This document shows, one piece after another, positions 35,081-37,525 of a DNA stretch of 64,000 bases. Numbering within the stretch: the first letter of the stretch is position 1; the number at the start of each line of letters is the position of its first letter. This DNA comes from an uncultured archaeon. GTDB lineage: Archaea > Aenigmatarchaeota > Aenigmatarchaeia > QMZP01. Both the position numbers and the translations under genes were made by a program. Where the stretch lies: NCBI GenBank assembly GCA_964555875.1, contig CAZKUD010000004.1:3580-67579 (forward strand). The letters are read 5' to 3'. The notes under the pieces are model-generated. The model did not search any database. It saw nothing but the letters and a program-made list of their open reading frames with translations, and was not told the origin of the DNA.

Positions 35081-35229
35081 TCAGTATATATTGTGTAGAA
35101 TATAGATTGGGAATACTATTTTGTAGGACACATACACTTATATAGGCGCTCAGACTAATTACATATTGCGCTTGTCATACTATATATTGTGTGCCAGACA
35201 CGAGAAATACACAATTTCCTTGTATTTCC
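35081..35229 (+). promoter_or_regulatory. nrdD upstream control region: two NrdR-box-like palindromes (TCAGTATATATTGTGT 35081-35096; ATACTATATATTGTGT 35177-35192; centres 96 bp apart) plus inverted repeat GAAATACAC-N9-GTGTATTTC-like at 35203-35229
   Basis: Match to the bacterial NrdR-box consensus acaCwAtATaTwGtgt (15/16 and 13/16). AT-rich 200-bp leader. SD GGGAGGGAG 7 nt before the ATG. Confidence 0.4.
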
Positions 35230-35269
35230 GTGTTACTGGCCAGTGACAAAGGCATGGGAGGGAGATGAT

Positions 35270-37525
35270 ATGAAGTGTCCATTTTGCGGAAAAGAGGAAA
35301 CCAAGGTCCTTGACAAGAGGGAATCAGGGGTATCCAACAGGCGGAGAAGGGAGTGCCTGAGCTGCAAGAAGAGGTTCACCACTTACGAGAAGATAGGCGG
35401 CCTTCTGACAAAGGTCCGCAAGAGGGACGGAAAGGAAATAGATTTCAGCCAGGACAGGATCACTGAAGCCATCTGGGCATCTGCCAGGGAGGTAGGAGGC
35501 AAGGACAAGGAGCTCGCCAAGAAGCTGTCCGACAGGGTGGTGCAGGTCCTGGAGGAGAAGTTCGGCGGCTACACTGTGCCGACTGTCGAGCAGATACAGG
35601 ATCTTGTGGAGAAGGTGCTGGTCGAGGGCGGGCACTACGAGACAGCCAAGGCCTACATACTGTACAGGAAGAACAGGGAGAAGCTGAGGGAGGCCAAGTC
35701 CACGATGGTGGACGTCGAGAACACCATAAGCTCATACCTGGACAGGAGGGACTGGAGGGTCAAGGAGAACAGCAACGAGGCCTTCTCGTTTTCCGGCCTC
35801 CTGCTCTACACTGCAGGCAAGGTGATGGCCAACTACAACCTGAACGAGATATACACGCCGGCCATAGCCGAGGCGCACAGGAAGGGCTACATGCACGTGC
35901 ACGACCTCTCCCACGGGGTCATAGGCTACTGCTGCGGTCATTCGCTCAAGAACCTGCTCCTTACAGGGTTCGGGGGCGTGCCCAACAAGGTGGACGCCAA
36001 GCCAGCCAAGCACCTGGACGTGGTGGTGCACCACATGATAAACTACATAGGCTGCCTGCAGATGGAGTTCGCAGGCGCGCAGGCTTTCAACTCCGTGGAC
36101 ACCCTGCTCGCGCCCTTCGTGAAGGAGGACAGCCTGACATACAAGCAGGTCAAGCAGAACATGCAGAAGCTCGTCTTCTCGCTGAACGTGCCCTCCAGGT
36201 GGGGGTCACAGTACCCGTTCTCCAACCTGACTTTCGACTGGGTGCCTCCAGAGGACCTCAAGGGCCAGAAGGCCATAGTCGGCGGGAAGGAACTGGATTA
36301 CAACTACGGCGACTGCCAGGCAGAGATGAACATGATAAACAGGGCCTTCATAGAGGTCATGCTCGAGGGAGACGCGAACGGGAGGATATTCACCTTCCCC
36401 ATACCGACCTACAACATAACCAGGGACTTCGACTGGGACTCTGAGAACGCCAAGCTGCTCTTCGAGCTCACGGCCAAGTACGGGACACCCTACTTCCAGA
36501 ACTATGTGGGCTCCAACCTGAACCCAAATTCGGTCAGGGCCATGTGCTGCAGGCTGAACATGGACCTGACGCAGCTAATGAACAGGCCGGGAGGCATGTG
36601 GTCGATGGGCGACAGCACAGGCTCCATAGGCGTGGTCACCATAAACCTTAACAGGCTTGCGTACGAGGCCAAGGACAAGGACGAGTTCCTAGAGAAGATA
36701 AAGCACTACATGATGCTTGCGAAGACGTCCCTGGAGACCAAGAGGAGGGTGGTGGAGAACAACATGAGGAACGGCCTGATGCCCTATACCAAGAGGTACT
36801 TGGGCACATTCAAGAACCACTTCTCAACCATCGGCCTGTGCGGCATGAACGAGGCCTGCCTCAACCTGATAGGAAAGGACATAAGCTCGCCCGAAGGGAA
36901 GGAGCTCACGATAGACACCCTCAAGTTCATGAGGGAGAAGACGAGGGAGTTCCAGACAGAGACAGGAAGCCTCTACAACCTGGAGGCGACCCCTGCCGAA
37001 TCGACCGCATACAGGTTCGCCAGGCTGGACAAGAAGATGTACCCTGACATAAAGGTGTCCGGCACCGAGGAGACGCCGTACCTCACCAACTCGACGTACC
37101 TGCCTGTCGGGCACACAGACGACGTGGTGCAGGCGCTGGAGCACCAGAACGACATACAGCCATTGTACACTGGAGGGACGATGTTCCATACGTTCCTTGG
37201 GGAGAAGGTCTCCAGCGGGGAGTCGGCCAAGATGCTGGTCAAGAAGATAGCGGTGAACACCAGGCTGCCGTACTTCTCGATAACCCCGACCTTCAGCATA
37301 TGCCCGACCCACGGTTACGTGAGGGGCGAGCATTTCAAGTGCCCACAGCCGAACGGCGGCTCAGAGCCCTGCGGGAAGAACTGCGAGGTGTTCTCCAGGG
37401 TGGTCGGTTACTTCAGGCCAATCCAGAACTGGAACGACGGAAAGCAGCAGGAGTTCAAGGAGAGGCTGGAATACCAGGAGAACAAGGCCTTCTCGAGGGA
37501 CTTCTCCTTCACTAAGGCCACATAG
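35270..37525 (+). CDS. nrdD: Anaerobic ribonucleoside-triphosphate reductase (class III) with an NrdR-like zinc-ribbon + ATP-cone N-terminus
   Basis: N-terminus [42 protein letters not shown] (NrdR-type Zn ribbon), ATP-cone, C-terminal glycyl-radical motif [19 protein letters not shown]. The ORF track starts upstream at 35189. Confidence 0.9.
   Translation: [751 protein letters not shown]

What the first reader, a model, noticed from the sequence alone, without database searches (positions are those of the whole stretch)
35081..37525. NrdD carries an NrdR-like zinc ribbon and is preceded by NrdR-box-like palindromes spaced 96 bp apart
The first 45 aa of the class III RNR ([42 protein letters not shown]) are almost superimposable on the DNA-binding zinc ribbon of the bacterial repressor NrdR, and an ATP-cone follows, as in NrdR. 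The 200-bp AT-rich leader holds two 16-mers (TCAGTATATATTGTGT, ATACTATATATTGTGT) that match the NrdR-box consensus acaCwAtATaTwGtgt with centres exactly 96 bp apart (three times the usual 32-bp phasing), plus a further inverted repeat next to the SD. Either this archaeon uses an NrdR-type dATP/ATP-sensing operator system with the repressor module fused onto the enzyme it regulates (possible autoregulation), or a separate NrdR exists elsewhere and NrdD has gained a zinc ribbon.
Basis: partly seen in the sequence, partly recalled or inferred. Interest (0 to 1): 0.7.

Follow-up and report, generated by a model that had tools for sequence, protein, structure and literature searches.

The report
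Anaerobic RNR fused to NrdR DNA-binding domain
In this small archaeon the enzyme that makes DNA building blocks without oxygen carries the DNA-binding zinc ribbon of the repressor NrdR, and NrdR operator sites flank its own promoter, so the enzyme probably switches off its own gene, though this has not been tested.

Summary
The nrdD gene (35270-37525) encodes a 751-aa protein. Residues 1-40 match Pfam Zn_ribbon_NrdR (58 bits, cut-off 27), residues 48-137 are an ATP-cone, and residues 166-735 are the NrdD core.

The two 16-mers are the only NrdR-box matches in 64 kb (0.11 expected by chance). Box 2 (35177-35192) keeps all six critical positions. Box 1 (35081-35096) has G at the critical C4.

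Comparative data support a real operator:
- 9 of 12 single-ORF fusion loci carry boxes within 300 bp upstream: 13 hits in 3.6 kb against 0 in 197 kb elsewhere.
- 21 of 28 NrdR-linked DPANN loci show box pairs 30-32 bp apart.
- 9 archaeal nrdD loci without an NrdR ribbon have none upstream.

Related archaea form a series: an nrdR-nrdD operon, a full NrdR-NrdD fusion (~855 aa), and this reduced form. The reduced form has lost NrdR's own cone, so the ribbon sits on NrdD's cone at the same spacing as in NrdR. The DNA-contact residues (D15, R17, RRRR) are conserved.

My best explanation is nucleotide-sensing autorepression by the enzyme itself (confidence about 0.55). I could not exclude a separate NrdR elsewhere in the genome. 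I found no paper describing the fusion. I rate it a new variant of a known kind.

The parts
35081..35096 (.). NrdR box 1 (TCAGTATATATTGTGT), the distal box upstream of the TATA box. It has G at the critical position 4.
   Evidence: PWM score 12.2. The equivalent box in the closest relative L166 is ATACAAAATATTGTGT, 97 bp from its box 2.
35113..35128 (.). Degenerate partner of box 1 (ATACTATTTTGTAGGA), after a 16-bp linker. Only the left half is box-like.
   Evidence: Read from the sequence. Aligned with the half-box AAACAATATAC in L166/L167. It scores below the PWM threshold, so it is a weak assignment.
35138..35144 (+). Putative archaeal TATA box (TTATATA) between the two box pairs. The predicted transcription start is near 35167.
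   Evidence: TTTATATA is invariant in the alignment of WIN, L166, L167 and L164. The transcription start is inferred from the usual distance of about 26 bp (general knowledge). It is not mapped.
35177..35192 (.). NrdR box 2 (ATACTATATATTGTGT), with all six critical positions intact. It lies about +10 to +26 from the predicted transcription start.
   Evidence: 1 mismatch to the consensus. Best PWM score in the whole window, 20.4. Conserved in L166, L167 and L164.
35209..35225 (.). Box 3 (ACACAATTTCCTTGTAT), a degenerate 17-bp partner of box 2 after a 16-bp linker. It sits inside the inverted repeat 35204-35228.
   Evidence: repeat I10. Relatives have a 16-mer here: TCACAAGATGTAGTAG in L164 (PWM 14.7, 31 bp from its box 2) and the weaker ACACAATAAGTTGGTG in L166. 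The 17-mer PWM score is only 7.0.
35256..35264 (+). Shine-Dalgarno-like GGGAGGGAG, 5 nt before the ATG.
   Evidence: Read from the sequence.
35270..37525 (+). nrdD CDS (751 aa): NrdR-type zinc ribbon, then ATP-cone, then class III RNR core. The glycyl-radical motif RVVGY is present.
   Evidence: The identical protein is found on 9 contigs from independent samples.
35270..35389 (+). NrdR-type zinc ribbon (residues 1-40) with C3, C6, C29, C32, K12, D15, R17, R24-27 and R35.
   Evidence: PF22811, 58 bits. NrdR PDB matches. These residues are invariant or nearly so in 24 fusion proteins. The DNA-contact roles come from PMC9110341. The AF2 model shows three strands, pLDDT 66-78.
35411..35680 (+). 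ATP-cone (residues 48-137), RNR type.
   Evidence: PF03477, 75 bits. The NrdD model PRK08270 aligns from residue 47, and the NrdR model TIGR00244 covers only residues 1-70. It is 55% identical to the second cone of the full fusion P0026 and gives no hit to the first, NrdR-type cone.
35765..37474 (+). NRDD catalytic domain (residues 166-735).
   Evidence: PF13597, 611 bits. PRK08270, 1032 bits.
37556..38248 (+). nrdG, the radical-SAM activase, downstream in the same orientation.
   Evidence: Radical_SAM and Fer4_12 matches. The same gene order is conserved in relatives.

Best explanation
The window comes from a DPANN archaeon. Its closest relatives are Candidatus Aenigmatarchaeota MAGs.

The class III ribonucleotide reductase NrdD has absorbed the DNA-binding zinc ribbon of the repressor NrdR. 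The ribbon is joined directly to the enzyme's own allosteric ATP-cone, in the same register as in NrdR.

NrdR boxes flank the archaeal core promoter of nrdDG. Box 1 and a weak partner lie upstream of the TATA box. Box 2 and a weak partner lie just downstream of the predicted transcription start.

**Proposed mechanism (inferred, not shown).**
1. When dATP is high, the ATP-cones of an NrdD dimer pair up and dimers associate, as in Prevotella copri NrdD.
2. The ribbons then pair across dimers as in the NrdR tetramer, and each ribbon pair binds one box.
3. This blocks RNA polymerase recruitment or promoter escape at the enzyme's own promoter.
4. When ATP dominates, the ribbons are not presented and the operon is transcribed.

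One nucleotide sensor would then control both catalytic activity and synthesis of the enzyme.
For: **Shown here:**
- The ribbon is of NrdR type and sits on a complete, apparently functional NrdD with nrdG downstream.
- The NrdR residues that contact DNA (D15 and R17 for specificity; RRRR and R35 for the backbone, per PMC9110341) are invariant or nearly invariant in 24 fusion proteins. They are as conserved as the catalytic core.
- The two boxes are the only matches in the 64 kb.
- 9 of 12 single-ORF fusion loci have boxes within 300 bp upstream: 13 hits in 3.6 kb against 0 in 197 kb of flanks.
- 21 of 28 NrdR-linked DPANN loci have pairs 30-32 bp apart, 17 of them exactly 32.
- 9 archaeal nrdD loci without an NrdR ribbon have no box upstream.
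- There is an evolutionary series in syntenic loci. A separate nrdR sits directly upstream of nrdD. The full fusion P0026 (855 aa) is on 10 contigs. The reduced form equals the full fusion minus the NrdR cone and tail.
- The ribbon-to-cone spacing is identical to that of NrdR.
- No other NrdR-like ribbon was found in the window or in the flanks of the fusion loci I searched by tblastn.
- The boxes sit around a conserved TATA box.

**From the literature:** dATP shifts the cone-bearing P. copri NrdD towards tetramers with paired cones (PMC11226230). The NrdR tetramer is held together by ribbon pairs, and each pair binds one box (PMC9110341).
Against: - No binding or expression data exist.
- The rest of the genome could not be searched, so a separate NrdR may exist. 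Standalone NrdR is common in DPANN archaea.
- In this window only box 2 is a good box. Box 1 lacks C4, and both 32-bp partners are degenerate. Bacterial NrdR needs two boxes (PMC13584703).
- The cone is of RNR type. NrdR's cone is described as a distinct class that binds ATP and dATP together, so the switching logic may not carry over.
- NrdD is probably far more abundant than a typical repressor.
- The second RNR gene in the window (nrdJ, 44213) has no box. This shows only that the regulon is narrow.
Confidence: 0.55

Rival explanations
1. A separate, conventional NrdR encoded elsewhere in the genome binds the boxes. The ribbon on NrdD would then serve another purpose, for example pairing with NrdR ribbons to titrate or modulate the repressor, or it is on its way to being lost.
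For: Standalone NrdR is widespread in Aenigm-, Woese-, Nano- and Altiarchaeota. It usually sits directly upstream of nrdD, with the same box pairs. I saw only 64 kb of this genome.
Against: - In the syntenic loci the nrdR gene lies exactly where the ribbon now is, so the fusion most simply consumed the resident nrdR.
- No second ribbon was found in the window or in the flanks of the fusion loci I searched by tblastn.
- None of the 120 best standalone NrdR clusters shares a contig length with a reduced-fusion cluster. This is weak evidence.
- The ribbon's DNA-contact residues are invariant, which is not expected of a relic.
Confidence: 0.25
2. The ribbon is kept for a role that does not involve DNA, such as zinc or structural stabilisation, binding of nrdD mRNA, or oligomerisation. 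The upstream palindromes would be leftover operators, or TATA-like promoter sequence no longer bound by any NrdR-type domain.
For: - The window's own operator is partly decayed: G at C4 of box 1 and degenerate partners.
- The AT-rich box centres resemble archaeal TATA boxes. In L170 the box sits where a TATA box for a near-leaderless transcript would be.
- The putative 5'UTR folds more stably than shuffles, z = -2.8.
Against: - Full box pairs with intact C4 and G13 at 31-32 bp persist across many diverged fusion lineages. This requires selection.
- Flanking positions outside the TATA-like core (ACAC / GTGT) are conserved.
- The RNA fold is not conserved in relatives, and no Rfam family matches.
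Confidence: 0.12
3. Chance resemblance or assembly artefact. On this reading the ribbon ORF and nrdD are joined by a sequencing error and the 16-mers are random AT-rich sequence.
For: None found.
Against: - The identical 751-aa protein is on 9 contigs from independent samples.
- More than 90 of the 120 closest protein clusters carry PF22811 together with NRDD.
- No shuffle gave two box matches.
- The boxes are conserved in orthologous loci.
Confidence: 0.01

Closest known systems
Bacterial NrdR repressor with paired NrdR boxes (S. coelicolor nrdRJ, E. coli nrdAB/nrdHIEF/nrdDG; PDB 7P37, 9FZF)
   Same: - The same zinc-ribbon family (PF22811).
- The same specificity residues D15 and R17 and the RRRR motif.
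- The same 16-bp palindrome. The consensus from DPANN loci is ACACAATATATTGTGT.
- The same 31-32 bp pairing in relatives.
- An ATP-cone directly after the ribbon at the same spacing.
- The target is an RNR operon.
   Different: - It is not a free 140-220 aa protein. The ribbon is the N-terminus of the enzyme it would regulate.
- NrdR's own cone and C-terminal tail are missing, and the cone is the enzyme's RNR-type cone. TIGR00244 scores 66.7 against a cut-off of 124.65.
- The promoter is archaeal, with a TATA box rather than -35/-10 elements.
- In this window the strong boxes are 96 bp apart, on either side of the TATA box.
- The second RNR gene (nrdJ) has no box, whereas bacterial NrdR usually covers all RNR operons.
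DPANN nrdR-nrdD operons and full-length NrdR-NrdD fusions (~855 aa, e.g. P0026/L172)
   Same: - The same lineage and synteny: MetRS, nrdD, nrdG, ferredoxin, cysteine desulfurase, NifU.
- The same boxes upstream.
- 70-78% identical NrdD cores.
   Different: Those forms keep the complete NrdR, including its own cone, either as a separate gene or as an N-terminal module with two tandem cones. The window protein lacks about 105 residues (the NrdR cone and tail) and has a single cone.
ATP-cone-bearing class III RNR (Prevotella copri NrdD, PDB 8P23-8P2S)
   Same: An ATP-cone followed by the NrdD core. dATP inhibition with paired cones and a dimer-tetramer shift is documented (PMC11226230). The window's cone matches this chain (E = 3.5e-6).
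   Different: P. copri NrdD has no zinc ribbon and no known DNA binding.
Trigger enzymes that repress their own genes (PutA with an N-terminal ribbon-helix-helix domain, BirA). This comparison is from my general knowledge and was not tested here.
   Same: A metabolic enzyme carries a DNA-binding domain and would repress its own operon in response to its metabolite.
   Different: The folds and ligands are unrelated. Here the DNA-binding module comes from a dedicated repressor of the same pathway and would share the enzyme's allosteric sensor. The comparison is one of logic only, not of membership.

Membership tests
NrdR (TIGR00244 / COG1327) | N-terminal zinc ribbon with two CxxC motifs of the NrdR type | tested here: met
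   PF22811 on residues 1-40, 58.4 bits against a cut-off of 27.2. Matches NrdR PDB chains at E = 2e-10.
NrdR (TIGR00244 / COG1327) | DNA-contact residues: D15 and R17 for specificity, the RRRR motif and R37 for the backbone (S. coelicolor numbering) | tested here: met
   The window protein has K12, D15, R17, R24-27 and R35. These are invariant or at least 90% conserved in 24 fusion proteins. The roles come from PMC9110341.
NrdR (TIGR00244 / COG1327) | Whole-protein match to the NrdR equivalog model, including the NrdR-class ATP-cone | tested here: not met
   TIGR00244 scores 66.7 bits against a cut-off of 124.65 and aligns only residues 1-70. The cone matches the RNR cone of P0026 at 55% identity and gives no hit to its NrdR cone.
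NrdR (TIGR00244 / COG1327) | Free-standing protein of about 140-220 aa | tested here: not met
   A single 751-aa ORF, found on 9 independent contigs.
NrdR (TIGR00244 / COG1327) | Paired 16-bp NrdR boxes, centres 31-32 bp apart, in an RNR promoter | tested here: inconclusive
   In the window there is one strong box (35177), one box lacking C4 (35081), and degenerate partners at +32. In relatives the feature is clearly met: 21 of 28 loci have pairs at 30-32 bp.
NrdR (TIGR00244 / COG1327) | ATP/dATP-dependent binding to the boxes and repression | not testable with these tools
   This needs EMSA or MST and in vitro transcription.
Class III ribonucleotide reductase NrdD (PRK08270 / TIGR02487) | NRDD catalytic domain above the curated cut-off | tested here: met
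   PF13597, 611 bits. NF006126, 1032 bits against a cut-off of 548. TIGR02487, 530 bits against 326.
Class III ribonucleotide reductase NrdD (PRK08270 / TIGR02487) | C-terminal glycyl-radical motif and an adjacent radical-SAM activase (nrdG) | tested here: met
   RVVGY at residues 710-714. A Radical_SAM/Fer4_12 gene lies at 37556-38248.

The most novel reading that the evidence does not exclude
In a clade of DPANN archaea, NrdD is a bifunctional enzyme-repressor. A single RNR-type ATP-cone both tunes catalysis and, through a grafted NrdR zinc ribbon, drives dATP-dependent binding to NrdR boxes around the enzyme's own archaeal TATA promoter. This would show that an RNR cone can replace the NrdR cone as the switch for DNA binding. 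It would also show that a bacterial-type NrdR operator works on the archaeal transcription machinery.
Probability: 0.4. Interest if true: 0.8.

Novelty: new variant of a known kind. Interest (0 to 1): 0.65.

Why it matters
NrdR is studied as a bacterial master regulator of dNTP supply and as an antibacterial target. The papers I read call it rare or absent in archaea, and one puts it in 22% of archaeal genomes.

These loci show three things:
- The complete NrdR and NrdR-box system is common in DPANN archaea and sits on TATA-type promoters.
- Evolution has merged the repressor into its target enzyme, first whole and then with one of the two redundant ATP-cones deleted.
- The reduced form is a natural domain-swap experiment. 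If it binds DNA, the RNR cone and the NrdR cone are functionally interchangeable as oligomerisation switches. That question about the shared origin of the regulator and the enzyme could then be tested directly.

It would also add a clear archaeal example of an enzyme that represses its own gene. For annotation, these proteins are labelled only 'ribonucleoside triphosphate reductase'. Some have miscalled starts that hide the ribbon (P0038).

Tried and rejected
- **Mixed statistics.** My first box count treated separate nrdR-nrdD operons as fusions, because tblastn had joined the two genes. One search showed that L005-L011, L017, L050, L063, L065, L035 and L038 have a separate nrdR with its own stop codon. 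I redid the statistics for true single-ORF fusions.
- **Bacterial 'fusions'.** L035, L038 and L029 turned out to be adjacent genes, not fusions. At 3 mismatches or fewer I found no boxes upstream of L035 or L038 and did not pursue them.
- **Metagenome scan.** Only six loci were useful.
- **Representative-library search.** It cannot measure the diversity of the fusion. NrdD is so conserved that the fusions collapse into about ten clusters at 50% identity.
- **Leader RNA.** No Rfam match. The stable fold of the putative 5'UTR (z = -2.8) is not conserved in L166, L167 or L164, so I rejected a conserved RNA element.
- **Boxes upstream of nrdJ.** None within 400 bp, even allowing 5 mismatches.
- **Same-contig co-occurrence.** Comparing longest-contig lengths of standalone NrdR clusters and reduced fusions gave no coincidence. 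Only 120 clusters are listed, so this is weak.
- **AF2 full-length model.** It shows a folded ribbon and cone on a low-confidence linker, but a monomer model cannot test the oligomer mechanism. I ran no fold search because the core would dominate the result.
- **Literature (and reading).** I found no mention of an NrdR-NrdD fusion. The library lacks most subscription journals, including Rodionov and Gelfand 2005.
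Full report
**1. What is in the window**

The ORF listed from GTG 35189 really starts at ATG 35270. That ATG lies 5 nt after GGGAGGGAG (35256-35264), and every homologue starts MKCP....

The 751-aa product has three Pfam domains:

| Residues | Domain | Score |
|---|---|---|
| 1-40 | Zn_ribbon_NrdR (PF22811) | 58.4 bits, cut-off 27.2 |
| 48-137 | ATP-cone | 75.6 bits |
| 166-735 | NRDD | 611 bits |

The NCBIfam NrdD model PRK08270 (1032 bits) aligns from residue 47. The NrdR model TIGR00244 aligns only residues 1-70 and stays below its cut-off (66.7 against 124.65). 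So a normal cone-bearing NrdD has an NrdR ribbon added at its N-terminus.

Against solved structures, residues 1-83 match E. coli and S. coelicolor NrdR best (E = 2e-10). There is no gap between the ribbon and the start of the cone.

The glycyl-radical motif is present, and a radical-SAM activase gene follows at 37556-38248.

The identical protein is on 9 contigs from independent samples, so the fusion is not an assembly error.

**2. The DNA motifs**

TCAGTATATATTGTGT (35081-35096) and ATACTATATATTGTGT (35177-35192) are the only matches to the NrdR-box consensus with up to 3 mismatches in 64 kb. The expected number is 0.11, and 0 of 100 shuffles gave two.

According to PMC13584703, C4, A6, A8, T9, T11 and G13 are the conserved positions, and C4 and G13 are critical. 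Box 2 has all six. Box 1 has G at position 4.

I built a position weight matrix (PWM) from 32 boxes of related archaeal loci, leaving the window out. Box 2 scores 20.4, the best site in the window. Box 1 scores 12.2. The seed boxes were chosen by their match to the consensus, so this matrix is not independent of it.

**3. Related sequences**

Of the 120 closest protein clusters, more than 90 combine PF22811, ATP-cone and NRDD. Where a source names them, they are Aenigm-, Woese- or Nanoarchaeota (DPANN). The closest genomes are Candidatus Aenigmatarchaeota MAGs.

There are two protein architectures:
- **Reduced form**, about 750 aa: ribbon plus one cone.
- **Full form**, about 855-880 aa: a complete NrdR (ribbon, NrdR-type cone, tail) followed by the RNR cone and the NrdD core.

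Reading the DNA showed a third state. In many DPANN loci (L005-L011, L017, L050, L063, L065, L091) nrdR is a separate gene of about 150 aa, directly upstream of nrdD.

The three states occur in syntenic loci (MetRS, nrdD, nrdG, ferredoxin, cysteine desulfurase, NifU). The alignment shows that the reduced form equals the full form minus about 105 residues, namely the NrdR cone and tail. The window's cone is 55% identical to the second cone of P0026 and gives no hit to the first.

From the TTYE motif to the K(K/R)DG motif of the cone there are ten residues in both NrdR and the window protein. The ribbon-cone geometry is therefore preserved.

**4. Are the boxes conserved?**

- For 12 loci with a single-ORF reduced fusion, 9 have at least one box within 300 bp upstream (up to 3 mismatches, C4 and G13 intact). 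That is 13 hits in 3.6 kb against 0 in 197 kb of the same loci.
- Two further reduced fusions also have boxes: L171, on a 1.0-Mb contig of a Woesearchaeota genome, and L170.
- The full fusion L172 has a pair at -162 and -130.
- Across 28 ribbon-linked loci of all three states, 21 have neighbouring boxes 30-32 bp apart, 17 of them exactly 32. This is the canonical NrdR operator.
- Nine archaeal nrdD loci without an NrdR ribbon have no box upstream. They are three Hadarchaeota (which carry a different ribbon), one Hadesarchaea, Aciduliprofundum/DHVE2, one Woesearchaeota, one Iainarchaeum and one other.

**5. Operator layout in the window**

I aligned the upstream region with its three closest relatives. 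The conserved order is:

box 1 -> weak box -> TTTATATA -> box 2 -> box 3

- In L166 and L167 the two strong boxes are 97 bp apart, as in the window (96 bp).
- Box 3 lies after a 16-bp linker from box 2. It is a clear 16-mer in L164 (PWM 14.7), is weaker in L166 and L167, and is a 17-bp variant in the window (35209-35225).
- With the TATA box at 35138-35144, the transcription start should be near 35167. That is an inference from the usual archaeal spacing. Box 2 would then lie at about +10 to +26, a position from which archaeal repressors typically block polymerase recruitment (general knowledge).
- The window's operator is more degenerate than those of its relatives.

**6. Is the ribbon still a DNA-binding domain?**

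In S. coelicolor NrdR, R12, R26-29 and R37 contact the backbone, and D15 and R17 give specificity. The R17A mutant abolishes binding (PMC9110341).

The window protein has K12, D15, R17, R24-27 and R35. In 24 fusion proteins C3, C6, C29, C32, R17, R24-27, F36, T37, T38 and E40 are invariant, and D15 and R35 are at least 90% conserved. This is as strong as the conservation of the catalytic core.

**7. Mechanism**

In the NrdR tetramer, cones pair within dimers and ribbons pair across dimers. Each ribbon pair binds one box. In P. copri NrdD, dATP orders and pairs the cones and shifts the enzyme towards tetramers.

My model is that dATP-loaded NrdD dimers associate through ribbon pairs, bind the boxes and repress nrdDG. 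This is inference only. The AF2 monomer model shows a folded ribbon (pLDDT 66-78) and cone (75-88) on a low-confidence linker (residues 138-192). That fits a mobile N-terminal module but proves nothing more.

**8. What remains open**

- I could not search the rest of the genome for a standalone nrdR.
- There is none in the window or in the flanks of the fusion loci I searched by tblastn.
- None of the 120 best standalone DPANN NrdR clusters shares a contig length with a reduced-fusion cluster. This is weak evidence.
- Standalone NrdR is common in DPANN archaea.
- The window's second RNR gene is class II-type, carries an intein, has no ATP-cone (44213-46927) and has no box.

**9. Literature**

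Searches and targeted reading of the recent NrdR and NrdD papers found no description of an NrdR-NrdD fusion. Automated JGI names such as 'anaerobic ribonucleoside-triphosphate reductase/transcriptional regulator NrdR' show that pipelines have seen both domains. The library is incomplete, so prior mention elsewhere cannot be excluded.

**10. Verdict**

The thing is a new variant of the NrdR system. The repressor's DNA-binding domain is grafted onto the enzyme's own ATP-cone, with conserved operators on an archaeal promoter. Autorepression by the enzyme is the best explanation (about 0.55). A separate NrdR is the main rival (about 0.25).

Noticed in passing
window 44213-46927 and 46924-47436: A second ribonucleotide reductase of class II type (Ribonuc_red_lgN + lgC). 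It is interrupted by a LAGLIDADG intein and has no ATP-cone. A CobA/BtuR-type corrinoid adenosyltransferase follows. There is no NrdR box within 400 bp upstream, even allowing 5 mismatches. In the relative L164 the equivalent protein has an ATP-cone and no intein was listed.
   Followed up: partly
window 32923-35067: The methionyl-tRNA synthetase (714 aa) carries a C-terminal B3_4 domain, the domain type found in the PheRS beta subunit. Relatives L164 and L166 have it too. L169 and L172 have a 495-497 aa MetRS without it.
   Followed up: no
window 38245-39240: A Maf-like domain (residues 138-326) is fused to an unassigned N-terminal domain of about 135 aa. The start overlaps the nrdG stop, so this nucleotide house-cleaning enzyme may be co-transcribed with nrdDG. 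The next ORF (39237-39806) has no Pfam match.
   Followed up: no
window 35594-35609: ATACAGGATCTTGTGG is the second-best PWM hit for an NrdR box in the whole window (14.9). It lies inside nrdD and encodes IQDLVE of the ATP-cone. Box-like codon choice at this motif is commoner in NrdR-linked loci (mean PWM 8.5, n = 20) than in other nrdD genes (mean -3.8, n = 96). AT-rich codon usage is an uncontrolled confounder.
   Followed up: partly
window 35167-35272 (palindrome 35193-35240): The putative 5'UTR folds into a long hairpin centred on box 3 (-32.7 kcal/mol, z = -2.8, 1 of 200 shuffles as stable). The fold is not seen in L166, L167 or L164 (z between -0.6 and -1.6). No Rfam family matches.
   Followed up: yes
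L013:7019-9316, L014:9869-12142, L016:9830-12058: Hadarchaeota NrdD proteins have a different N-terminal zinc ribbon (CPKCGH...CPRCG) ahead of the ATP-cone and no NrdR boxes. This looks like an independent ribbon acquisition of unknown role.
   Followed up: partly
L170:9866-12082 (NCBI JAWAAG010000002.1, protein P0038): The annotated 693-aa NrdD 'without ribbon' has a miscalled start. An NrdR-type ribbon ([18 protein letters not shown]...) is in frame 135 nt upstream. A box lies about 18 nt before that ATG, where a TATA box for a near-leaderless transcript would sit. Other 'ribbon-less' close relatives may be the same kind of miscall.
   Followed up: partly
L035:648-3469, L038:10001-12911: A Spirochaetaceae MAG and Treponema brennaborense have nrdR directly upstream of an nrdD that is 50-54% identical to the window protein. 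No box with 3 mismatches or fewer was found within 350 bp upstream.
   Followed up: no
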